From Felis catus (lineage: Eukaryota): a stretch of 64,000 nt of DNA. The translations under genes and the position numbers were made by a program. Location of the stretch: NCBI RefSeq assembly GCF_018350175.1, contig NC_058379.1:27714001-27778000 (forward strand), written 5' to 3'. Below, one piece after another: positions 2,374-62,939 of this stretch. Position 1 is the stretch's first letter; every line of letters starts with the position of its first letter. The notes beneath the pieces are model-generated. The model saw only the letters and a list, made by a program, of their open reading frames with translations. It had not been told where the DNA came from and made no database searches.

Positions 2374-5179
2374 AAAAAGGCCAACAGGCCTCTGGACGAC
2401 ATGCTAGGCCAGAATGCAGCAAAGGATGACAGGAATGCACATGAATGAATGGGAAGGTATTCTGGCCTCAACAGAGCCGAGGGGGCCTAGACACTCGGAA
2501 AACTGAGGCTTCCGATTCACATCACATCAGTCTCCTACCAGGCTGGCTGCACACGTTAAGGCTTTGCACAGAGGTTACCTGGACCCAAGAATCTGCAGCC
2601 CCATTTCACTCTGCCAAGCACTTTACACGTTTTGGGATAATTTTTAAGGCTAGACAGCCTGACTGTTTTTCTTTAGAGCATGCAGAGGACAGGGGCCCTC
2701 CGGCTTCACACGGCAGGGCTGAGGAGCCAGACACCTCATCCTCGCCCCATGCGGCCCAGGCTATCACTGTGGCAGCCCCCAGGGCCAGAGCTGGAAAGCA
2801 TCCACTGCTCTTTTCGCATGATGCGTAATGTCTTCCCAGCAGCTGCCAGCAGAGGAGGTAAACACACATGGGAACACAGTGTTGCTGTTCTGGGGGCCTT
2901 GGCTGAGAAAGCCCTGACGTCTGTAAATATTCTGAGCAGCGGCCCACTGCAACATGCCCCCCCTCCCCCCCCTCCCCGCCACCAGCACGCCAGCCCAGCT
3001 CAGCTCAGCAACTGAGACTCTACAATTTATGCTTTGTCGTTCTGGTTGAGTGACATTTCACCGTGACAAATTTTCCACAAGGATACTCTCTCCTAAGATC
3101 TCCACAATGCTTAGGGAGCACTAATTCAACCCCATACCAAGTGTCACTGTCCCTGCATTTCAAAGGAGTGACACACATGAGGGGAACAATGAATATTACA
3201 GAAAGCCCTGGACACAGGACAGCCCCTGTACCTTAACCCTTCCTGGCTTCCCCACAAGCCAGGGGCCAGCCCAGCCTCACAGTGGCCCCACTGCCCCCAT
3301 GCTTAATAAAGGACAAAGGAGTATTCCCACTAACCCCTCAAAAGATCAAAAGAGGGTGAAAGCAAGCACTTAAAATTAGTGTGGTCCTGAAATCTTTCAC
3401 ACATGTACCCTGAGTGTCAGTAGCCATCAAGAGATGGTGGACGGCTCTTTTTACTTTTAAGTGTATATATATCATTTTTGCAAATCTAAAAAAGAAAAGT
3501 TGAGAGAGATTAAAAAAAAAAAAAAAAAAAGGCTGCACTGATAACCTGGAAAGGCAACTCAGTGTCCTGAGGCAACCTTGTTTTCATGGAACCCATCACC
3601 CAACCCCCATGGTCTGGACCAACAGATTCCATGGTGCTGCCCTCACGAACAGACATGTCACCAAAGGATGGACTCAGTTCTCACACATCTGGTGTGTCAA
3701 CGACAAGTGTGGCACCACTTCTAAAAGCCCTTCCAGCCTCTCTGCCATAGGCCATTTAACTCCAGACATACTCTGGAGGCCCCTCACTTCTCCACAGAAA
3801 TCCTCAGAATTAGCAGGCTGAGAAATAGCCTCCATGGGCAGGCACCAAGGATGCCTTCAGAGAGCTCGCCCTCTGGTGCAGAAACCAGACACAAGAACGA
3901 GACCCCAAGACACTGCACAATTACATCCACAGTGAAACATAACTAAAAGCCCACAAAATGAGGTCACAAAAGAAGCATAGAGCAGTAACACAGCTCAGGG
4001 ACTGGGCAGCCAGGGCAGAGCTGATGGCCAGTTTCCTTCATTCAGGGAAGGCTGTTGTCACCACATATCCAAGCAGGCAGTGGCAGCAACCCAGTCAGAG
4101 TGGCCTGCAGTCTGTGGACACACCAGTATCACGAAGCCACAGGAATGGGGCTAATGATCAAAGGCCAGATAAGGGGGGGGGGGCACCAGGGTAGCCCACC
4201 CACCACAAGGGAGCACTATGATCCTGGAGAGGAGGGGACAGAGGCTCTACTGTGTCCTCCTGCCTCCAGGCCACCAGACAGGTCACCCAAAGCAGGTAGG
4301 ATCCTGAGACAGTGGCCCAGGTGGAACAGAGGCACTGGAACCTGGCCCTGGCTCTGCATGACCTTGGAAACACCATCTGCCCCTCAGCCTGAGTTTTCTT
4401 CGCTGTGGACAGCATCCAATCAATGAAGATTTGCCCAAAAAAGTTGCCCAGAGGATTAACAAGCAAGTTTGAGAAAGCATTCCAAAGTGCTACCAGCTGT
4501 AGGCACCCCTTATAGCTGTCATGACATCACATCTGCCTGTGTCATGACATCACATCTGCCTCACGGAAGAAAGCTCTGAGCCTAAACAGCAGCAGCAAAA
4601 CAGCAGTCAGCAGGTCAGGAGCAGGACGCCAGGCCAGGCCTGAGCCCAGCATGTGATATCCCTGCTGGAGGAAAAGGGCTGAGGCTCAGGGATTGGTCCA
4701 AGGGCAGAAGACTCTGTCTAAAGCTGTGGCCCAGGGGTAGGCCATGAAGCACCTGACACGCTGCAGTCAGGGAAGGGGGTCTGAAAGCCCAGCACCAGGG
4801 CTAGCCCCTGCCCTGGGTGCAGCCCTGCCCAGCCCCACCCCCGAAGCCCTGGGAGATGGTCTGACCAACTCCTCCACCCCAGAAAAGGCGTGTCCAAGCG
4901 CAGGGATGACCCAGCACTTGCTGCCTACTCAGACATACATCAGCTGTCACCTGGCTGCCCCGCAGCAGGCCACATGGAGGTGGCACCGTGACTCAGGGCT
5001 TCAGAGCTGTCTGAGGGCGTAGCCCACCCACCCTGCAGCGACCACGCAGCTCCCAGCCCAGCCAGTCTCTGCTTCCCTGCGGCGAGACCAGCCCTGCCTT
5101 GCCAGTGGACCCGGCTTCCCGTTCTGGCGGGGATCACTAGAAACGCCTTCCAGTAACGCATGGGGCGCTTCCTCCGGCT

Positions 5180-5750
5180 CGGTTTAGTCTCTCAGGACCC
5201 GGCGTTGGATTTCCATTCCACGCCTCGGGAAGGGGAAACAGGCAGGGCGGGGAGGTGAGGCCCCGCCCCTCTCCTCCCTACCGGCGCCCCCGGAGCCCCG
5301 CGCCCCCGATCCCGGGCCGGCCCTGCAAGGGAGCGGAGTCCGCAGGCCCGGGCCGCCAGCCACGCACTCACCGCCTCCGCCGCCACAGACTTCCGGGTGC
5401 CGCGCCCGCGCGCCGCCGCCGCCGCTGCCCAGGCCCCGCCCCCCCGCCCTCTGAGCGCCCGCCATTGGGCTGCGCCGTTAGGGGCGGGGCGACATACCGC
5501 GAGCCGGACCACCGTTGGCTGCGCGCGCTGTCGTTCGGGGTCTGCAGCCCTCCCGGCGCCCCGCCCCCAGGTCTGCGCCAAGCCTCCGGGCTGAGTGGGC
5601 GTGTGGTGGCCTCCGGGCCTCCGCGGCTTTCCCAGCCTTCCGGGCGCCCCAGCTTGGAGGACGCCCTCAGGAGGTCGCGCCACTTGCAGCGGCCCGAGAG
5701 CATGCCTTCGAGGGCCCATTAGGGACGCGGCCTGAGCTCCAGGGGCTGTA
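5180..5750 (-). promoter_or_regulatory. TANGO2: CpG-island promoter (TANGO2 main promoter by synteny)
   Basis: Very high CpG/GC density, several GGGGCGGGG GC boxes, a CCAAT box on the - strand (ATTGG at ~5464) and an ETS motif CCGGAAGT on the - strand at ~5389-5396. The gene name is inferred from the conserved TANGO2-ARVCF-COMT order; no TANGO2 coding sequence is in the window. Confidence 0.7.
5372..5420 (-). other. TANGO2: Putative non-coding exon 1 of TANGO2 (5' end approximate); intron 1 runs off the left edge
   Basis: The - strand reads ...CCCGGAAGTCTGTGGCGGCGGAGGCG|GTGAGT, with a consensus donor at 5371-5366 inside the CpG island. Confidence 0.6.
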
Positions 5751-6288
5751 GGTCACCTACCTACCTGGCGGCCTTCGCTGGAAGCTATAGGAGGATGCCC
5801 ACTTCCGGATCCACCCCTCAGGCGGGTTCGTGGCTCTGGACCTGGCCACCCCTCCCTTTTCTTTATGGCCCTCAGTTTTGTCCAGCCTCTGCCACTCTGG
5901 CCTTTGGCCTCCCTCCCTACTGCAATCCCTTCCACACTCAGGACAAACCCTGGACCAGGCTCTCCAGACCCACCCAGCCACTGTGGTATCTGAGCCCACC
6001 CGGAGGCCGATCTACAGGTCCAGGCCCCAGGATGAAGAGTTGGCCCACCCTGAGCTGTAATGGGTGAGCAAGTGAGCAAGAGGTGGGAAGGGGCACTGAC
6101 TGGGGGCCCTCCCAACAGGACAGAGGCATTCACTGGACTCTCTGCCTTCTTTGACCTCTGGGCTGTGTCTGGAGCCTGAGTGCGGGGCGGGGGGAGTGGA
6201 GAGTGAGAGGCCCAGGGACCAGGGCCTACTCCAAAGTGGGCGCTCAGCAAACTATGACAAGGATGACAGTTACATTAAGGATAATAAT

Positions 6289-9389: not shown

Positions 9390-10720
9390 TCGCGCGCGGC
9401 TTGCGTAAAGAATACCATCAGATATTGAGAGGAGGGCGCGGCGCGCTGCTCCCGGCGAACAGCAGGGGCCGGAGAAAGGACCCTAGCGAACTAGGGACGG
9501 TTCCGGCGAGACTGGAAACCGAGAAAGGAGCACAGGGTCTGCCAATCCCCGCTCGGGGCGGACGGCACGGGGACATCCTGGAAGGCGGCCGAGAGTGGGC
9601 GGCCCCGAGGATCCGGCGGCCGCCGCAGCGGTCCCGGCAGGTGCCCGGGCCTCGGCCCCTCCACGAAGGGGCCGGTCGTGGCCGGGACGGACACCCCGGG
9701 AGCCCAATGGCAAGCCGGCGTCTCCCAGCGCCCGTCCAATTGACGCCGGTTGCCGGGCCGCGCTGGGTCTCCCGACCAATCGGAAAATTCGCGTTCGGAG
9801 GGGGCGGGGCGGAGGGTCGCGTCGCTGGCCAGACCCGCTTTGCGCACGGGCCGCGCGAGGGGTGGGAAGGGCTGGCCCTGGGGCTGCACGCTGGGCCCAG
9901 GAGGGGTCCGCCCCTGCACCCGTCCAAGTTGAGCCCCCGCGGACCGCTAACCGCGCCTCGCCCTGGGGACGCCGCGCCCCGTGCGGCGAGAGACCTGGGG
10001 ACGCCCGTCTGGGGGCGGGGGCCACGCTGCGGGGCCGCCCACGCCGCGCTCCAGGTAGGCTCGGGCCGGGGGGGCGGGGTCCGGAGGTCGGGGCCCGGAT
10101 TGGGACGAGGCCAGAGGTCCGGGACGGGTTCGCAACTGCGGTCTAGCAGAGGCTGGGTCGAGATGGGGTCCTGAACCGGGAATCGACGTCTGGCCGGGTG
10201 TAGCTGCCGGGGTAGAAGCCGGGCCCCGCCCCACCTGCACCTTGCCGGCGCTGCGGTGCGCGAGACCCTGAACTACGGGGGCGGGTCCCTTTGTGCGCGG
10301 TCTCGGGGCCCTGCCGACTGGGCCAGGGCATCCCGCACCGCGCGTCCCCGTGGAGACTCGGCCGGAACCCGCAGCCTTTACTGCCCTGCGCGACGCCGGG
10401 TGCCTTGCGGCTGGGGTCCCGTAGCCACGGAAACTTTCCAGCGGTCAGAGGGACGGCGGGGCCGGAGGAACTTTCCCGGGGCGGCGCGCCACCGGAACGC
10501 GCGAGGGCACGGCGGGGCCAAGGGGATGTCCCCGCTCCTGGTGCTCCCGCCGCCTAGAGGACGAGGGAGGGGATGCCACCCGGGGTTCCTGCCTGGTGCC
10601 CTGAACGGGGGCCGCCCCGACCGGGGATCCCCAGTTCCTGACACCCCTGAGTCCCCTCTGTGGGATACCGGGCCCGTGGCAGAGGTGCGTCCTTCCCACT
10701 TGGGGTGGTACTCAGGCTAG
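9390..10720 (+). promoter_or_regulatory. ARVCF: CpG-island promoter of ARVCF (possibly bidirectional)
   Basis: CpG-dense; three CCAAT boxes at 9704, 9736 and 9776, followed by the GC box GGGGCGGGGC at 9801-9810; no TATA box seen. Confidence 0.8.
9830..10054 (+). other. ARVCF: ARVCF non-coding exon 1 (TSS approximate)
   Basis: ATG-free GC-rich segment downstream of the CCAAT/GC boxes, ending at the donor CCAG|GTAGGC (10054/10055). Confidence 0.65.
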
Positions 10721-15199: not shown

Positions 15200-16780
15200 C
15201 AGTGAGATCCTGGTGCAGAAGTTCTCCTTGCTGTGCTGTTTATCACAACAAGACACACCCAGCTTTCTGGAATGGGGAAGACGTTATTATCATTCTAGAG
15301 CTGAACAATCAGTGTTGAAGGAGCTAGTCAACAGCATTAGAAATATTTACAAGGGACCGTGGTAGCGGTAATCCAGGTGAGTGGGGATAAGAGAATGTGC
15401 ATGAACGTGTGGGTACACATCAGGAGCGCCACAGGATGACCTCGGGGTCAGGGATGACAGTGCCCCCACCAGGGGTCTGGCTTCATCTAGAAGGGACTTA
15501 GCCCAACAGGTTGGCTTCACAAGGTATCCTCTGGTTTTCCTGCAGGATCTGGAGACATCAGGATGGATGTTGGGACATGCTAATCTCCCCTCCAGATAGG
15601 TAAGCAACCAAGGCTTGGCCTGGGGACATCCCCCTCTTCGCATAGGACAGCAGAGTGTCCTAGTGGGCCTGGCAGGTGTGGTTGACTGAGGGATGGACTA
15701 TGACCCAGGGTGGTGTATTCTTCTGGTCAGCCTCACTTGGGTGGGCACAGCCCCAACGCTAGACAGGGGTGGGCATGGGGGCCTCCCAGTGCTTGGACTC
15801 ATGGATGGCCTGAGTGTGGTCAGCAGCCACCAGGTTGATATTTGGCTTGAGGGGTGAGCCTGCAGTGGGGTGGACCAACCAGGACATTGGCTGGATCTGA
15901 TCCTCACTTACCTTGACTTGGATGCCTGCTATAGCCATGTCTGGTATCAGCATAGCCCAACAGGCTTGGCTCTTAGCTCAGGTGGTCCCTGCTGCCCAGG
16001 GGAGACTAGAGCTACCAGCTGGGGACAGGCCATCACATGCTGGCCCGTGTCCTTGGATGTTACCTGTGTTTGTGGGTTCATCTGGTAGTCACTCCTCCAG
16101 CAAGACTAGGGTATGGTGCTTGGGAAGTATGGCAGAGTTGGGAGGCTGTGTGGTCCCTGTGTCCCCCAGGTCCTTCTGAATGGTGGGAAGGTATGTCCTG
16201 TTTGAACCCTGGTCTTTCAGGGTTTGCTGTGGTGGCTGTATTTACAGAGATGCCTCATAAAAATGCCTCTGGTCACTCTTGTTCCACCAGTATGGGTGCC
16301 CAGTCCCCAGCCTGGGCATCTGCTCCTGCCCCACTGGGTGATGTCTCCATGGGAGGCTTGGTCAACCCAGTCCTGTGAATTCTCAGTGGTACTGTGTATC
16401 CAGCGGGGACAGCCTGGCCCAGCCAGTGACATACTCAAGTGGTGGGGAGAAGGCAGAGGCGACAAACTTGGGAGACCCCAGGCCTCTAGACACCTCAGTG
16501 TTCTATGCCAAGGGCTATAGAACAGGGAGGGACAGGGCCTGGCTCCTTCTTCCTTGTTCCACGTGACCGTGGGTGTGGGAAGCTGCCATTTGGTGGTGTA
16601 CCACCTGGGCAGATCAAGGTCAGGCCAGGCATCTCAGTCGTGGGCTGTTGGGCCACATGGGGACCTCTGGATTGGGATGAAGAGGCCCAGGCTGCATCCT
16701 GGGCTCAGAACCTGGCATTGCTTTGTGGCATGAGTGACATGGTTTCTAGGGGCAAGGTTGGCAGGGGGCTGGCCCCTGCC
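15200..16780 (-). mobile_element. Probable highly decayed ERV (ERVL-like) pol/integrase remnant
   Basis: Colinear weak motifs on the - strand: WYT..GS-like (~16590), EQ/SGH-like (~16275), STWWL (vs ATWWQVD; ~15825) and HVHAH..DYRYH (~15360-15415). Similarity judged by eye only. Confidence 0.4.
15546..15599 (+). other. ARVCF: ARVCF non-coding exon 2 (54 nt, 5'UTR)
   Basis: Acceptor ctctggttttcctgcAG| and strong donor AG|GTAAGC. The 54-nt size and position ~5.5 kb after exon 1 agree with my recollection of human ARVCF exon 2. Confidence 0.7.
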
Positions 16781-33000: not shown

Positions 33001-34039
33001 CCACTGTGATGAAGTCAAGGTCTAGAAGCAAGTTATCATCTGTCTTTTGTCTGAAATGCTCACTGCATATGTTACTGTAAATGGTGTCAGCTTTAAAAAC
33101 CAAAACCAAAAAACCATAACCACAATACGTGGCCCTTTTTTTGGGGAAGGGGGGATGTACAGTAATGGTTCGTTTTCACAAAGTCAAGCTGGTTTGTCTT
33201 TCCTTGGCAATTTCTTCCACTGCTTTGAGGTTAAGAATAGCCTCCTCCTGCCCAGACAGCCCAGGCCCTACACTGACTTGGGAGCAACACTGTAGTCCTG
33301 GGTGGGACAGGCAGACATGGACTCCGCCCTGTGTGAACCCCACGGCCCAGGCTCCAGCTTTGGCTCAGTGCCCATCCTTGTGTGCTGGCCAGAAGCTATC
33401 CCCGCAGCTGTGGGTACCATCTGACCACAGTAGGGGTGACAGGGTAAAAATGGGCTCCCCATGAGGCCTGGCCAGCAGTGTTGGGAGCAAGTCTCCATGC
33501 TGGCAGTGTTGAGGGTAGGGGAAATGATGCCCTCCCAGGCAAAGGGGCTTTGACACTACCAGGCCTGGATTCTGCTTCTGCTTGCACCATTTCCTCCCTA
33601 TCTGGGAGGGGGGGGCAAGTGGGGCAGAATGAGGTTCAACCAGTGGCCAGTCCCCTCTCTCCCCTCTTGGGGGACAGCTGGCAGTGTGCCGACAGATGGC
33701 CGGCAAGGGGTCGGGACTGGCGCCCAGGCCTCCTGCCTGCCTCCCCCTGCCGTCCTGACCCTTAGGAAATTCCTCTAATTCCTCAACCCAGATTGGACTC
33801 AGGCCCCATAATTTGATTTTCTGGAGCAGGGTTTGGCTGGACTCCTTATGAGGAGGAATGTCTGGGTCAGCAGGAAGACATCAAATGTGGGTTTAGGTTT
33901 CCGGGGAATGATCAGCATCTCCCCGTAGTTCCTCTAATCGTGCCTTTGCTTTCCTGATGGAGCAAGTGCTAGCCACAGTCGTGTCCCAGAGTGTTCAGGG
34001 TCCAGGCTCCCTCTACCCAGTAGTGTTTCAGAGCCTTGT

Positions 34040-35198: not shown

Positions 35199-37867
35199 AG
35201 TCTCATGGTCAATCTTAAAAATTCATGTACAATTTGCTTCCATGTCATCACATATTTATTGTTTTAATATAAAAATAGCATTTGAGTTACCATCCGAAAA
35301 GCTGCTCTCTGGGATGCTGGCCTGGCTCACCTGTACCTACACGTGTTCCTATGCACAGGCCATGCACCTCAGACCCAGGAAGGCCACCATGTCACAAAAG
35401 TAGGCTTAGGTCTTCCCTGCTTCCTGGATGTCCCCCGCCAGCACCATGCCTCTTGGATACCCCAGGGCTACACTTAAGGCAGGTGAGGAGGGGACTCCAT
35501 GCCCAGCATCCCTGCCCACAGGCAGACAGAGGGGTACACCCTCGGGCTGGGGTGGAGGGCATGGGCCCCAGAGCAGGGGCTCTGCTCTTTGTGGATGGCT
35601 GCAGGGCACTCTTCCTCCAAGCTGGCTGGCATTTCGGGGTGTCTCCTGGGAGGCACACAGTCATTTAGCTCCAGCTGAGAGAACTGGGCAATGGAAAGGT
35701 CAGTGTGGGTTTGGCCACCTTCTCACCATAGTCTTAGATTTCTGGGTCCTAGCTGGGTGGGTGGGGCAGTCAAAGTAAGTAGATCCCCCTTGCAGGGACT
35801 CCTTGGACCTCAGAGTTGGGATATGCTGGAGGGCCGGGGCAGGAAAGCTGGAGGCCAGTGCTGCCCCCTCAGCTGCTATCCCCAGGGTCTGTAGCCCTAG
35901 CCTGGTCCTGCTGGGAGCAGGAAAGGGGAGCCTGAGGTCAGTCAGGAACCCATGTCTTGGCATAAGGAGGAAGGGAAGTCACCTCCTAGATATGAGGCCC
36001 ATAGATTTCCTGATCATCACCTCCCAGAGCCTTGAGACCCATGCTGCAACCAAGGGCTTGAGTGACCTGGCTCCACCTCCTGTCCCACCTTGTGCTGCCT
36101 TCCAGGGAGGACGACCCCACCCATGCCCACCTGGGGCTACCAGGTTCAGTCTATCCATGCACAAGTCCTAGTGCCTACGTGACACTGCATGGGGCCGTGT
36201 GTGTCTGGGACCCGTGCCTAGGCAGCAGTGGATGTGCACAGAAGGCTGTGTGCCCACAGCCATGGACATACCATGCTTTTTGTCCTCCATTCCCTCTTGG
36301 CCAGAGGACCCAGTCTATAACTCACTCCCCTCATCCCCCCAAGCTCCTCCCCTGCCCCCTTGCCAGCTACTGCCTCTTCTAGCTGGCCATGCTGATTTCA
36401 CTGCCCCTCTGCTAGGTCACACTGGTGGTTTTATTTGCGTGACAGGTGTTGGAGAAATGAAGCTCAGCTTCTGGGACCTATGTTGATCTCTTGCCTTCAA
36501 TGGGCCTTGGTTTCCCCAGCTTCACAGTGGGTTGGACTCTATGATGTCTTTTCACCTCGAGGTACACCCGTGCCCCCCAACCCTGTCCCTTGCTCAGCTG
36601 GTACCAGTGATCAGGCCCAGCACTGACCCCCCCTCCTTTCTAGGATTCTGTTCTTAAAGCTGGCTCCACCTGGGCCAGTGAGCAGCAGAGCTGGCCCTCC
36701 AGGGGTGCTACCCACTGTGCCATGTCTCTAAGCTCAGGCCCTATGTTGTGCAGGGGCACAGGGGCTGGCAGAGTCAGCTTCAACTGGTTGGGGTGGGCCG
36801 GGCCAGGAGGAGGCCCCGAGCAGGACTGGGTACTGCACCACAGTGCCTAGTGGTATGGCTGCATGGCCTGCACCCTGCCTGCTGCCATGCCCCTGGGTCT
36901 GTGCTCCACATGCTTCCCCTGCTTCTTTTTGTTCATGAAAAACAAATATGCTGGGCAGCCAGGGAGCAAGCATCGAGGAAAGTGCTGGCTTGTTGTTGCA
37001 GCTGCCAAGTCCCTGCCACCCCCACCCACCATCCTGCGGCCCTCAGGAACAGCAGTGGGCAGGGCCCCAGGCAGGCCTGACCTTCCCCACAGACTGGGCC
37101 TCAGATGCCTGGGACCCTGCCCTCAACCTCCCTCCAGATCAGGCGTGAGACACATGGGCCACTTCTGGGTGCAGAATCTCAACCAGGCTAAACTTGAATT
37201 TTACTCTGCCATGTGGGTAAATGCCACTCTCGTTCCCAGCCAGTGTGGCTGTGAGTGGAGGCCCGACTGCTGGTGTGTAGACTAGTGTCATCTCCTCACC
37301 TGCCTCAGTATCTGACCCACCAGGAGGCCATGGAATGGCTTCTGTCTCCCTGCCCGCTGGTACAGCAGCTCTGCCACACCAGCTGTGTGGCTGTAGATGG
37401 GTTTCCCAATTTCTTTGGGCCACAGAGCATCTGCCTCAGTGAGGTGGGTCTGTGCTAGCCCCATGAGGTTGGGATGAACTGGAATGTGCTATGGACAGCA
37501 GAGGGCCTGGGAAGTCTGAGAGGTTGTCACACCAGCTCTTCCTACCCTTCCCTTCCCAGAGGACTCTGGGATACCCAGAACCTCAGGTTCTGCTGAACCT
37601 GGCAGGAAGCAGGGGCTCCCGGCTGAGAGCCCTACACTCTGCAGGGAGGGAGCCTGCTGCTTCTGGCCAGCCTCGGATTAACGGCTTTTAATTTAGAATT
37701 TAATCAATGCAGCTTCTCTCTGGAGAGCTGGATGCTCTGGTCTGGGAGTGAGTCCTATGATCTATGTGTGCAGTGGGAAGGGGGCCTATGATGGCCTCTC
37801 TAGGCCTCCACCCCAGCCCCACCTTGACCATGCTCTGCTTTGCCTGCAGCCTGCTGGCATCCTGGTC

Positions 37868-38077
37868 ATGGAGGACTGCAACGTGCACTCAGCTGCCAGC
37901 ATCCTGGCCTCAGTGAAGGAGCAGGAGGCCCGCTTTGAGAGACTGACGCGAGCTCTGGAGCAGGAGAGGCGCCATGTTGCCTTGCAGCTGGAGCGCGCCC
38001 AGCAGCCTGGTGTGGGCAGTGGTGGTGTGGGCAGTGGGCAGCCCCTGCCGATGGCTTGGCAACAGCTGGTCCTGCAG
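37868..38077 (+). CDS. ARVCF: ARVCF exon 3, first coding exon (exon begins 37850); N-terminal coiled coil MEDCNVHSAASILASVKEQEARFERLTRALEQERRHVALQLE...LVLQ
   Basis: Recognisable p120-family N-terminus; acceptor tgcctgcAG|; Kozak gtcATGG; donor CAG|GTAACA; 210 coding nt, phase 0. Confidence 0.97.
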
Positions 38078-41000: not shown

Positions 41001-41778
41001 CAAAGGCATGGAAGAGAGAGTGTCTGAAGCTAATTTGGCCTCAAGAGCTTTCACCCAGGGTCACCTAACAATTGAGCACCTCCCCACCCCCATTTGATCT
41101 GCTCTGACACCTATCAGAGAGTGGGGGGCCTCTGTATCTTGATGGGGAGAACCCAAGACAAGTAGATCAGTGCAGGTCCATTTGGCAGGCCCCAACTGAG
41201 CTCTGTGGGGGTCCGTCATGGGGTTTTGGGCAAGGGCCTGGACCAGATCTGGAAGTCCCGAGAGACCTTGTGGTGCTGACATCGTTGTAACAACTGTCTG
41301 ATCAGCCCTCATTTCACAGCAGGGGACAACTAGTCGAAGTTAGAGCAGCTTGTACTATTGAGGATGGCTGCATTGGCCCCTGCTCTGCCAGAATTGTTTC
41401 CCCAATTCTACACGGGGAGGGGCCCGTGAACTCTTATACTGGAGGCAAAATGAGTCCTGGGAAGCAGGACTTGGCCAAAGTCACTCGGCGGGAAAATGTC
41501 ACCCCAACGGTGGGGAGGAGAGGAACGAGGAGCCCAGACGCGCTGCCGCAGAGTTAGGGGCAACCCTGGCCCTGCCCTGGCTGCAGAGCCGAGCTCTGCG
41601 GGGGTAGGGGGCGGGACCTCGCCCCGCCCCACCGACCCCCGCCCCGCCCCGCCCCGCCTGGGCGCGGCCCCGCTCCATTGGCTGCTAGCCGTGACCGCCG
41701 CCAGATCCGCCCCCGCGGGGAGCGAGTCCGCCGAGCCCGAGCCCGAGCGGCCGAGGCGCCGGAGCCGATCCCGGTTCA

Positions 41779-41829
41779 GCTGCCGCCGCCGCTGCCGTCG
41801 CCGCTGCCGCCGCCGCCGCCGCCGCCGCC
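41779..41829 (+). repeat. Interrupted GCC trinucleotide repeat (17 triplets; pure (GCC)8 at 41806-41829)
   Basis: Read directly; lies in the 5' leader of the alternative first exon. Confidence 0.95.
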
Positions 41830-41872
41830 CTTAACGACCCGAGCCCCCCATCCCCCCGCCGAGCCCGGCCCG

Positions 41873-41893
41873 ATGCCGGCCGAACTCAGACAG
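41873..41893 (+). CDS. ARVCF: ARVCF alternative first exon, coding part MPAELRQ
   Basis: ATG CCG GCC GAA CTC AGA CAG|GTTGGA within the CpG island; the phase-0 donor is compatible with the phase-0 acceptor of exon 4. Confidence 0.75.
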
Positions 41894-42089
41894 GTTGGAG
41901 GGAACTCGGTCCCAGGCTTGGGGGCACAATCCCTGGGGCCCGGCGGCGGAGGGCGGGGCGCCGGCCTTCTCGGGAGGACCTGCTTTTGTTCCGTGGAGCT
42001 GCCGGCCGAAGGCGGCTATTGTCTGTGCCTCGGACCGGCGCCGCCGTTCGGCCCGGGGCGGGCGGGGCGGTGGAGTGAGCGCGATGCCC

Positions 42090-42091
<2 letters not shown>

Positions 42092-42137
<46 letters not shown>
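42092..42137. repeat. (GT)23 perfect microsatellite
   Basis: Read directly. Confidence 0.97.
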
Positions 42138-42139
<2 letters not shown>

Positions 42140-43191
42140 AAGGCGCGGGGTGGGGCCACGAGGTCTCTGGGGATCGGGTGCAAGGACCCCAGGCGGTGCG
42201 ACTCCGCGCCAAGAAGAAGGCAGGGATCGGGGTGGGTGCACCGTAAGGCAGCGCCCAGGACAGGTGCCTAGGTCTTGGGTGGTGGGTGAGAGACTTCCTG
42301 AGCAGCCGCTCCGTGCAGGAGGGATGCCGAGTCAAGAGAGAGCAGCCGGGCTAGGCCTCCTGCTCCCTGGGGAGCTTGGTGGGCCTCCCCTCCCCTTCAC
42401 ACTCCCAGCGCGGGCTCTGACTCTGGGGACCTGAGAAGGAGCTTCCGGAGCTTTAATGGAAGCCCTGTCGGCCTCGGCAGCGCACGTGAGGGGAGGAGTG
42501 GAGGAGGGCCCTGCCCACGTGCGGAGGCGGGAGGGGGTCTCTGAGGGAAACCCGGTCAGTCAGCCTCCCAGTACTGGGATGGAGCTGGAAGGAGGCGTGT
42601 GGGCTACCCGCACCTTGTACTCAGAGGGTTTGTGGTCCAGTAACAGGCAGGGAAACTGAGGCTGACTGGAGGAGCAACTGCCCCAGGCCCTTTGTGATTA
42701 GGGGGTAGATCACTCCTGCCTACCTTTGGCAGCTGGGTTTCTGCTTGCTGTGCATCTCTGGTATGGCCCCTAGGGTCTGGCCAGTGACTGTCCCAGAGAT
42801 GTAGGGGTCAGCTGGGGGGAGTTGGGGCCATTGTGTAGCTGTTGCATGTGGGCTGGGCTTGGAGAAACTGCGATGGGTGAAGCCAGCCCTGCTATCCCCT
42901 GCAACGCTGCAACCAGTGGTGTCTGCTGGGCACCAACTGCCCCCTGGCCTCTTGGCCACTCAGTGTAGACTGCAAGCCCTGGCAGGTGGACTGCTGCTGT
43001 GGAGGTGTGAGCTCCCCACCTGCCAGGGCTGGGCAGAGGCTGTGGGCATCAAGAGAGGACATCTGTGGTAGCCAAGGGCTCACTCTCTGGTGAGAGACCC
43101 AGCCTGGATTGTCTTGGACTCTATCCGTGATGACTGGGCTGGGGGTGGAGGGGGCAGGGGGACACTTTCATTCCTTTACTCTTCCCACTCG

Positions 43192-47246: not shown

Positions 47247-47405
47247 GAACAGAGCCCGGGCAGCCAGGCCTCGCTGGCCACAATGCCAGAGGCGCCCGAG
47301 GTGCTGGAGGAGACTGTGACGGTAGAGGAGGACCCTGGTACACCTACTTCTCACGTGTCCATTGTCACATCAGAAGATGGTACTACCCGGCGCACTGAGA
47401 CCAAG
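47247..47405 (+). CDS. ARVCF: ARVCF exon 4 (EQSPGSQASLATMPEAPEVLEETVTVEED...TETK)
   Basis: AG|...|GTATGG; 159 nt; phase 0-0. Confidence 0.97.
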
Positions 47406-61033: not shown

Positions 61034-61234
61034 TCAAGGCTGTGCTGGGCCATCCAGGCCCATGTAGACAGCCTTCTCGAGGCCATCCACTGCTGTCGAG
61101 TACTCCAGGTACGAGGTGAAGTGTGTGCACTCAAAGCGGCTGCTGTTGCGCACATATGCCAGGAATTCTGGTGTTCCTGGGCAGATAACGTTGTCGGCCA
61201 GCAACACTGTCCCCTTCCGTAGCAGGCCACACTC
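61034..61234 (-). CDS. COMT: COMT (catechol O-methyltransferase) last coding exon [29 protein letters not shown]...[18 protein letters not shown]
   Basis: Recognisable COMT C-terminus with the ADNV metal-binding motif; acceptor ctgcAG| in phase 0; 66 aa + TGA. Upstream exons lie beyond the window. Confidence 0.96.
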
Positions 61235-62939
61235 CTGCAGGGGACAGATAGTGGGAAGGGGTGAGGGTGACAGGTGCCCATCAAACCAACGACAAATGGG
61301 GAGGTTAGGTGCTCTTGGCCAGGTGGAGGCTCCACACACTGGCCTCTGTCTGGCCTGGAGTTAGCTCCTGGCATGAGGGTCTCCCCACTGCCTTCCATCT
61401 CCTCCCTGGCAGCAGCCACTCCAAGAAAGGGCTGTGCTGAGCACAAATCCTGCCTCCAGAATGTGGCTCTGTGAGGGCGAATCTTTTGCTCTTTGTTAGG
61501 TCCTGCATCCCCAGCCCCTAAAACAACATGGGGCATGCACAGTGGCTAATAATGCTAGCTGGATGAGTAAATGGAGGAGGCAGTGGAACCAGGATTCAGG
61601 CCACAGGACTGATTCAAGGCTAGTGGGGCCCTCAGTCACCCAGTGCCAGGAACACATGGTTCTTCCAGGTGAGATGCCTGGTGCCCAGTGCACGGGCTGC
61701 TGTGAACTGTCACTGGAGGTCCTAATGCCTGACGAGGGTGACCCTGGAGGGATGGGGGTGGAGGCAGGGCAGACATCCCCACCAAGAAGCCTGCCTCTTG
61801 GGGGTTTGCCCTGGACATCCCCAAACTCTGGCATTTGAACACCCTATCTCTACCAATGCCTGGGCCTGGGCTCTACAGAAGGAAGAAGCAGCAGCTGGAC
61901 CCAGCCAGGATGGTGAGCTGGGGGTGGGGCTGCCTAGAATATAGGAAACAATAGAAAAAAACTTTGAGAGGAAATGGTTGCCTGTGGAAGAGGGTCAGAC
62001 CAGGGCAATGGGTCATACCAGTTGCCTTGTCCTAGATTTAACTTTGGAAGCGTGGAGCTTCTTTTTCACACGATCATAAAATTAAAAAAAAAAAAAAAGC
62101 AATGCCAAACATCAGAAGCAAAATCAAAGTGACCCCAGGAGTGTCTCAAATTGCTAGCAGGACCACACACAATGGGCATCTCTAAGTGATTTAAAAACAT
62201 GGGGATTTAACTCTGTACACCTCCAGGGATGTGCCCTAGGACAGAGTCTTACAAGGGTCTCAGTTCTGGTGGTGACCACAGTCACTTTCAGCTTGTAGGC
62301 TGTGGGGGAAGCCAAGGGTCCTCTGGCCAGAGTGGAAAACACAGCTGTGAGGTCAGTGAGGCTAGGGACAATCCATGAGCCAGAATTTAAACAGAAAGTA
62401 CCACTGTGAGGCATGGAGCGTTTTCTCTTCTAAAAAGAAAACTCCCTAGCAATCCTGGCCAGAAAAACCTAAAACAGCTATCCGGGAGAAGGCACCCCGG
62501 CCCAGGCCCTAGAAGGGGAGCTGAGGTCTCCGGCGGGAAATGGACAAAGTGAGCCAGGAGTAGGGCTCTGAGCCTCATATGTGGGGTCGAGCTGCTCGGG
62601 AGCTGACTTCAGTAGGCACTGCTGGCCCCAGCCGGGACAAGTCATCAGACACTAAAAACCGAGCTGACCATGAAAGAAGGAATGAAAGGAAGAAGCTTTG
62701 GACGTGTTTGGAGGGTGCTGGGGCCTACCCATCCTTGAAGAAACTGGTCAGAAGGGAGAGAATGGCAGCACTTACCCCACCTTTCACCACACATCACGCC
62801 TCCTGATGGAGGACACAGACCCCCTGGAGAAGCCCACCCCGTCTGAGCAAACCTGTTGTGCTAACCCCTGCTGGGAGGAAACAGCCCTCAGAGGACCAGG
62901 TAGCCTGTACTTGAGGTGCTTTTAAACTCTGTGGTTCCT

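What the first reader, a model, noticed from the sequence alone, without database searches (positions are those of the whole stretch)
15546..15599. 54-nt 5'UTR exon of ARVCF loads three upstream AUGs, one per frame, including a uORF overlapping the main start
Seen: exon 1 as delimited has no ATG, but this exon has three. ATG 15563 gives MDVGTC*. ATG 15567 gives MLGHANLPSR*, whose TAG is the last 3 nt of the exon. ATG 15577, once spliced to exon 3 (37850), reads out of frame across the main ATG (37868) and stops at TGA 37914-37916. Established: overlapping uORFs repress initiation at the main AUG. Inference: including or skipping this exon acts as a translational switch for the coiled-coil-containing isoform. 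It may divert ribosomes to the in-frame good-Kozak GCCACAATG at 47283 in exon 4, analogous to the alternative-start isoforms of p120/CTNND1.
Basis: partly seen in the sequence, partly recalled or inferred. Interest (0 to 1): 0.7.

Follow-up and report, generated by a model that had tools for sequence, protein, structure and literature searches.

The report
Ordinary uORF brake exon in ARVCF
This short non-coding exon in the leader of a cat-family ARVCF gene holds three upstream start codons, one matching an overlapping reading frame already catalogued in human ARVCF; it likely lowers output of the long protein, a common arrangement, while the short protein likely comes mainly from a separate internal promoter.

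Summary
The three ATGs, their frames and stops are as described. The exon is very likely real: assembly-graph breaks in three runs from three studies fall exactly where its splice sites predict, and camel, armadillo and bat gene models read through it. The overlapping ORF from 15577 has the same 23+67-nt layout as human ARVCF uoORF c22norep10, catalogued by Ribo-seq but unreplicated. ATG 15567 and the exon-end TAG are absent in those three species. Three ATGs in 54 nt is unremarkable (27 of 492 intron windows), and 1,056 of 2,210 human internal leader exons carry translated upstream starts. Skipping appears only in two dolphin models; none was seen in this species. Likely role: a mostly standing brake on the long isoform, led by the strong first AUG, which runs over the other two.

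The parts
9820..10054 (+). ARVCF exon 1 in the far CpG-island promoter (start approximate; donor at 10054|10055)
   Evidence: GT donor; CpG o/e 0.89 for 9400-10700; CCAAT at 9704, 9736, 9776 and GC box at 9802; bat and dolphin models end this exon at the same codon
15515..15545 (+). Candidate branch point (A 15519), pyrimidine tract and acceptor AG of exon 2
   Evidence: Sequence (branch consensus recalled); acceptor among the top 5 of 1,939 AG sites in introns 1-2 under a crude 15-site matrix; contig break 15572/15543 in run X2
15546..15599 (+). 54-nt non-coding leader exon 2
   Evidence: Contig breaks at both predicted branch points; matched by armadillo, camel and bat model extensions, E 7e-5, 1e-3, 3e-7; human uoORF block of equal length
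15563..15583 (+). uORF1, 6 codons, strong start context; covers both later ATGs; stop 34 nt before the main ATG in mRNA
   Evidence: its T and G are fixed by an invariant Trp codon in 3 of 3 other species, the A cannot be read from protein
15567..15599 (+). uORF2, 10 codons, weak context, in the main frame, closed by the exon's last three bases; likely lineage-specific
   Evidence: Val for Met and Gln for stop in camel, armadillo, bat
15577..15599 (+). First 23 nt of the overlapping uORF (29 codons), moderate context
   Evidence: human c22norep10 has a 23-nt first block
15600..15605 (+). Donor GTAAGC of exon 2
   Evidence: Contigs of X5 and X13 both begin at 15570, the first 31-mer that holds base 15600
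37850..37916 (+). Last 67 nt of the overlapping uORF, across the main ATG, stop 37914-37916
   Evidence: human second block 67 nt
37850..38077 (+). Exon 3: 18 nt leader, main ATG 37868 (strong context), N-terminal head of the long isoform; internal ATG 37974 (out of frame) and 38051 (in frame)
   Evidence: coiled-coil head per PMC3013132 passages; no Pfam hit for this 70-aa piece
41700..41893 (+). Alternative first exon in an internal CpG island (start approximate); ATG 41873 encodes MPAELRQ, weak context, donor 41893|41894, in frame with exon 4
   Evidence: CpG o/e 0.84; 46 of 223 mammalian entries start this way, among them mouse RefSeq isoforms 4-7
47247..47405 (+). Exon 4 with in-frame ATG 47283 (moderate context)
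   Evidence: 5 of 223 entries start at the equivalent Met

Best explanation
This is the second, non-coding leader exon of ARVCF in a likely cat-family mammal, and its upstream start codons likely act as a mostly standing brake on the long, coiled-coil isoform made from the far promoter. Shown: the three frames; the nesting of ATG 15567 and 15577 inside uORF1; a human overlapping ORF of the same layout; an internal first exon that encodes a coiled-coil-less start. Strongly inferred: the exon is spliced in this species. Inferred, untested: most scanning ribosomes start at the strong ATG 15563, make 6 residues, thereby pass the two later ATGs, and part of them restart at the main ATG 34 nt on; the few that leak and take ATG 15577 run past the main ATG and are lost to the long isoform. 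The peptides are probably by-products. The short isoform likely comes mainly from the internal promoter (ATG 41873, weak, leaking to 47283), not from this exon. Skipping likely occurs at some level and would lift long-isoform output a few-fold.
For: Splicing: X2 contigs end at 15572 and begin at 15543, X5 and X13 contigs begin at 15570; these are the exact 31-mer branch points computed for exon 1-to-2 and exon 2-to-3 splicing; 3 of 6 independent internal ends, chance about 1e-6 to 6e-6. Age: read-through in camel, armadillo and bat models, 9-10 of 18 residues alike. Translation: human c22norep10, uoORF, 90 nt, blocks 23+67, 20 of 29 residues identical by eye. Contexts and distances. Toy model with assumed rates: uORF1 takes 0.71-0.94 of ribosomes, the overlapping ORF 0.03-0.15, main output with the exon 0.12-0.36 of that without. 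Class effect: removing such exons raised reporter output 1.4-5.5-fold in 4 of 6 genes (PMC12822670 passages). Internal promoter isoform. Peptide not constrained: PhyloCSF negative, 0 MS studies.
Against: No junction read was seen: the raw-read run X24 gave 0 reads on the stretch (2% of the run read), no joints or loose ends were listed, the tool marks X2 and X5 as guessed RNA and X13 as probably DNA, and 3 of 6 internal contig ends lie at unpredicted places. The human ORF is 'norep', called in one study (meaning per PMC13010147 passage), and ARVCF had no hit in the supplements of PMC4739776. uORF1 has no Ribo-seq record that I could see: it is below the 16-codon limit of that catalogue, and ARVCF appears only once in those supplements. 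Conservation of ATG 15563 is only compatible, not shown. In 2 of 6 tested genes exon removal did nothing. The model's rates are my assumptions.
Confidence: 0.62

Rival explanations
1. Regulated switch (first reader, widened): the exon is a tissue- or state-regulated cassette; inclusion shuts down the long isoform and sends reinitiating ribosomes to in-frame ATG 38051 or 47283, giving coiled-coil-less ARVCF.
For: Exon 1 joins exon 3 directly in pilot whale and bottlenose dolphin models (4 of 223 entries) and via exon 2 in a bat model. Toy model: truncated/long ratio 0.18-0.80 with the exon, 0.02-0.14 without. ARVCF long and short isoforms are known (PMC3013132 passages).
Against: No species was seen with both forms; the dolphin join could reflect exon loss. 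A search with the exon-1 frame found 4 proteins, none spliced. 47283 gets only 0.01-0.05 in the model, behind 37974 and 38051; 0 of 223 entries start at the 38051 equivalent. The internal promoter explains the short form more simply (46 of 223).
Confidence: 0.13
2. Tolerated noise: the exon is a real leader exon, but its ATGs arise from base composition, come and go, and change protein output little.
For: 56% of dinucleotide shuffles hold 3 or more ATGs and 70% an overlapping ORF; ATG 15567 and the TAG turn over; 42.5% of human leaders hold an upstream AUG, 15.0% an overlapping ORF (PMC11057154 passages); the human ORF is unreplicated and unconstrained.
Against: ATG 15577 is shared between a primate and a felid; the Trp and Ala codons that hold parts of ATG 15563 and 15577 are among only 6 of 18 invariant columns; a strong-context AUG 55 nt before the main start is hard to scan past (established scanning rule, recalled).
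Confidence: 0.22
3. Not an exon in this species: a chance AG...GT pair in the intron.
For: 39 other AG-GT pairs of 23,001 score as well under the crude matrix, one sharing this acceptor with a donor at 15675; no junction read was seen.
Against: Contig breaks at both predicted points; orthologous use in human, bat, camel and armadillo.
Confidence: 0.03

Closest known systems
Human ARVCF uoORF c22norep10 (GENCODE Ribo-seq ORF catalogue; row seen in supplements of PMC10032668 and PMC11419116)
   Same: Same gene, 29 codons, 23 nt in the small leader exon plus 67 nt in the first coding exon, 20 of 29 residues identical by eye.
   Different: It is labelled 'primatomorpha - young', a label that rests on weak peptide homology outside primates and on ORF structure traced only within primatomorphs; the intact frame here suggests the start is older. 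Whether human has uORF1 or uORF2 was not seen.
uORF-bearing internal 5'UTR exons (PMC12822670: CTCF, GRIN2B, KRIT1, TSC1)
   Same: Internal leader exon with upstream starts whose removal would raise main-ORF output.
   Different: No reporter or inclusion data for ARVCF; ARVCF is not named in that paper's main text (its supplements not searched).
p120/CTNND1 isoforms 1 and 3
   Same: Long isoform with, short isoform without, the N-terminal coiled coil; both known for ARVCF too.
   Different: In CTNND1 the starts are chosen by alternative splicing (PMC6331582 passage); here the short form has its own first exon and promoter. I saw no paper tying either gene's switch to a uORF.
CEBPA/CEBPB uORF-driven truncated isoforms and the ATF4 delayed-reinitiation leader (both recalled, not checked)
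   Same: Short uORF just ahead of the main AUG, an overlapping ORF, in-frame AUGs downstream.
   Different: In ATF4 the short uORF ends well before the overlapping ORF's AUG, so reinitiating ribosomes can take it; here that AUG lies inside uORF1 and cannot be reached by reinitiation from it. No stress data.

Membership tests
uORF-bearing internal 5'UTR exon | Internal exon wholly upstream of the main start, spliced into mRNA | tested here: met
   Indirect: contig breaks at both predicted branch points and orthologous joins; no junction read
uORF-bearing internal 5'UTR exon | Holds an upstream AUG with Ribo-seq evidence | tested here: inconclusive
   Human orthologue of ATG 15577 catalogued, unreplicated; no profiling for this species
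uORF-bearing internal 5'UTR exon | Removal raises main-ORF translation | not testable with these tools
   Only a toy model with assumed rates
Regulated cassette-exon translational switch | Both inclusion and skipping in one species, varying with tissue or state | tested here: inconclusive
   Skip join in 2 dolphin species, inclusion join in 1 bat and human; none with both; no skip evidence here
ATF4-type delayed-reinitiation leader | Short uORF ends upstream of the inhibitory overlapping ORF's AUG (definition recalled) | tested here: not met
   ATG 15577 lies inside uORF1 (15563-15583) and uORF2 (15567-15599)
C/EBP-type uORF isoform switch | Short uORF ending just before the main AUG, with in-frame AUGs downstream (definition recalled) | tested here: met
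   Stops 34 and 18 nt before 37868; in-frame ATG 38051 and 47283
C/EBP-type uORF isoform switch | Truncated isoform depends on the uORF | not testable with these tools
   A uORF-independent route exists (exon at 41873)
ARVCF (p120-catenin subfamily) | Orthology of the coding exons | tested here: met
   Exon 4 peptide 94-100% identical to named mammalian ARVCF proteins; a seal ARVCF maps in order over 37868-58302; Arm repeats in a felid homologue

The most novel reading that the evidence does not exclude
The exon is a placental-wide, alternatively spliced translational rheostat: a strong short uORF shields an overlapping uORF nested inside it, and under slow reinitiation (eIF2-alpha stress) or regulated inclusion it shifts ARVCF from the coiled-coil isoform to forms starting at Met62 or Met83, a second, translational route to the p120-type isoform switch; the human 'young' uoORF would then be an ancient regulatory start.
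Probability: 0.12. Interest if true: 0.55.

Novelty: new member of a known kind. Interest (0 to 1): 0.24.

Why it matters
The ARVCF head domain is the part that DIPA-family proteins are thought to bind (PMC4148249 passages), so anything that sets long-isoform dose could tune junction behaviour. This exon gives a ready test of that (one reporter series), and it is a case of a human Ribo-seq ORF labelled young whose start and layout are intact in a felid. Beyond that it is one of about a thousand such exons.

Tried and rejected
Direct junction reads: raw run X24 gave 0 reads on 15300-15900; no lay covering exons 1 and 2 together, or exon 3, was obtained, so the skip rate is open. Homologue search with the camel extension returned only itself, 1 of 2 candidates; search with the exon-1 frame returned 4 unspliced genomic frames among 1,118 candidates. 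Own-genome search with 351 nt round the exon gave one match, so no young repeat origin; old repeats are not excluded. Splice-site matrix alone cannot single the exon out (40 of 23,001 pairs; one of 15 training donors probably wrong). Folding of the spliced leader: -0.51 versus -0.53 kcal/mol per nt with and without the exon, no lead. 'One ATG per frame' as a design feature: rejected (36% of intron windows with 3 or more ATGs have it). The shared stop of the human and felid overlapping ORF as evidence: rejected, it is forced by the main frame. Gln for the exon-end stop in 3 of 3 species is biased: only stop-free species can give a read-through model. Paper searches: ARVCF + uORF 0 papers; ARVCF + p120 + isoforms + translation start 0; ARVCF + alternative promoter 4, none on this by listing; nothing on this exon by listing. 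No ARVCF row in supplements of PMC11057154 or PMC4739776. Supplement of the 2026 catalogue PMC13010147 was too large to read; it may hold uORF1 and a replication status. File 13 of PMC11419116 was not searched. Four look-ups for three other papers found nothing held and one id led to an unrelated paper. The primary ARVCF isoform papers (Mariner 2000, Kaufmann 2000) were seen only as references.

Full report
Observation. The 54 nt at 15546-15599 lie between a pyrimidine-rich acceptor and a GTAAGC donor. The gene is ARVCF: exon 4 is 94-100% identical to named mammalian ARVCF proteins (best 120 of 992 hits shown). The exon-3 peptide is 70 of 70 identical to cheetah and lynx, 69 of 70 to fishing cat, dog and seal, 67 of 70 to human, so the animal is likely a felid.

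Is the count special? Hardly. 27 of 492 non-overlapping 54-nt intron windows hold three or more ATGs; shuffles that keep dinucleotides give three or more in 56% and an overlapping ORF in 70%; shuffles of single bases give 5.8%; published human leader densities give 1.3-3.4%. In human, 42.5% of leaders have an upstream AUG and 15.0% an overlapping ORF (PMC11057154, abstract and passages), and 1,056 of 2,210 internal leader exons hold a Ribo-seq start (PMC12822670, passages).

Is it an exon here? Sequence alone does not decide: the pair ranks in the top 40 of 23,001 AG-GT pairs under a crude matrix. I laid 4 of 24 listed runs on 15300-15900. The raw-read run gave no read, and no joints or loose ends were listed. 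The contig ends are informative, however. With 31-letter words, splicing of exon 1 to this exon predicts an intronic contig ending at 15572 and a shared one starting at 15543; use of the donor predicts an intronic contig starting at 15570. Run X2 shows 15572 and 15543; runs X5 and X13 both start at 15570; three other internal ends (15391, 15541, 15725/15726) are unpredicted. Three of six on the predicted bases has a chance of about 1e-6 to 6e-6. Caveats: this is inference from graph geometry, X2 and X5 are guessed RNA, X13 is marked probably DNA. It also favours donor 15599 over the higher-scoring GT at 15675. It says nothing about skipping.

Other mammals. Among 223 mammalian entries (232 held, 9 marsupial, amphibian or unnamed non-placental rows dropped; entries are not species counts), N-terminally extended gene models record which exons were joined. 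Camel, armadillo and sac-winged bat models read through this exon in the main frame (tblastn to 15540-15596, E 1e-3, 7e-5, 3e-7), the bat one as exon 1-2-3. All three have Val where the window has the Met of ATG 15567 and Gln where it has the stop, so uORF2 is likely recent (the Gln is biased by how such models arise). The Gly-Trp pair that holds ATG 15563 is invariant and the His/Tyr-Ala pair that holds ATG 15577 is kept; one base of each ATG cannot be read from protein. Pilot whale and bottlenose dolphin models join exon 1 straight to exon 3: skipping or loss. No species showed both forms, and a search for a felid skip model found none. That such models rest on RNA-supported introns is recalled, not checked.

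Human. The supplement of PMC10032668 (row seen; passages) lists ARVCF uoORF c22norep10: 29 codons, blocks of 23 and 67 nt, matching 15577-15599 and 37850-37916; 20 of 29 residues agree by eye. It has no MS study, negative PhyloCSF, and the label 'primatomorpha - young'. 'norep' means not replicated across studies (PMC13010147 passage); PMC11419116 lists it in its undetected group (row seen). So the core of the finding is already catalogued, with modest support. That catalogue excludes ORFs under 16 codons, so it cannot speak for the two short ones.

An internal CpG island (41500-42300, o/e 0.84) holds a first exon whose ATG 41873 encodes MPAELRQ and joins exon 4 in frame; 46 of 223 entries start so, including mouse RefSeq isoforms, against 5 starting at the 47283 equivalent and 0 at the 38051 equivalent. 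This removes the coiled-coil exon by promoter choice; its weak context would let ribosomes leak to 47283 (inferred). On the long transcript, ATG 37974 and 38051 lie 57 and 134 nt after the overlapping ORF's stop, 47283 only at 197 nt. Long and short ARVCF isoforms are known and ascribed to alternative splicing and start use (PMC3013132 passages; for CTNND1 PMC6331582 passages).

Mechanism. ATG 15563 has the only strong context and its frame covers the other two ATGs, so it should take most ribosomes and shield the overlapping ORF; the main start then depends on reinitiation over 34 nt. This layout is not ATF4-like; it resembles the C/EBP leaders in geometry only (both recalled). The overlapping ORF ends 161 nt before the next junction, so decay of some transcripts is possible (inferred).

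Verdict. A real, old leader exon with an ordinary set of upstream ORFs, one of them already catalogued in human. Searches for ARVCF with uORF found no paper (also by listing), so its effect appears untested in the library held, which lacks most subscription papers. The scan had no note on this place or gene. Interest 0.24.

Noticed in passing
window 41700-41893 (+): Alternative first exon in an internal CpG island with a GCC repeat (41779-41829) in its leader and a (GT)23 run just downstream (42092-42138); encodes the MPAELRQ start of the short isoform.
   Followed up: yes
window 37670-37747 (+): Conserved AT-rich element about 100 nt before exon 3, ending in a GTGAGT donor-like site; two cetacean gene models use it as an exon (82% and 75% peptide match). 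If spliced to exon 3 it would bring two further out-of-frame overlapping ORFs (ATG 37707, 37732).
   Followed up: partly
window 33215-33268 and 37115-37189 (+): Two more intron-2 stretches matched by the extension of a fin whale gene model: conserved elements or further leader exons.
   Followed up: no
window 9707-10054 (+): The exon-1 frame is open from ATG 9707 and in frame with the main CDS if exon 2 is skipped; the ATG lies in a CCAAT box and is probably upstream of the start site. Exon 2's TAG closes this frame on inclusion.
   Followed up: partly
window 15542: A contig of run X5 ends at 15541, which could mark a variant at the -4 position of the acceptor or just low depth.
   Followed up: no
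window 38008-38037 (+): Perfect 15-nt tandem duplicate inside exon 3 coding sequence; this stretch is shorter in pangolin and ruminant proteins.
   Followed up: no
window 61034-61250 (-): Frame that looks like the last coding exon of COMT, tail to tail with ARVCF (recognised from memory; no Pfam hit for the piece).
   Followed up: partly
window 4000-6000: A further CpG-rich stretch upstream of the ARVCF promoter, perhaps belonging to the neighbouring gene; not identified.
   Followed up: no
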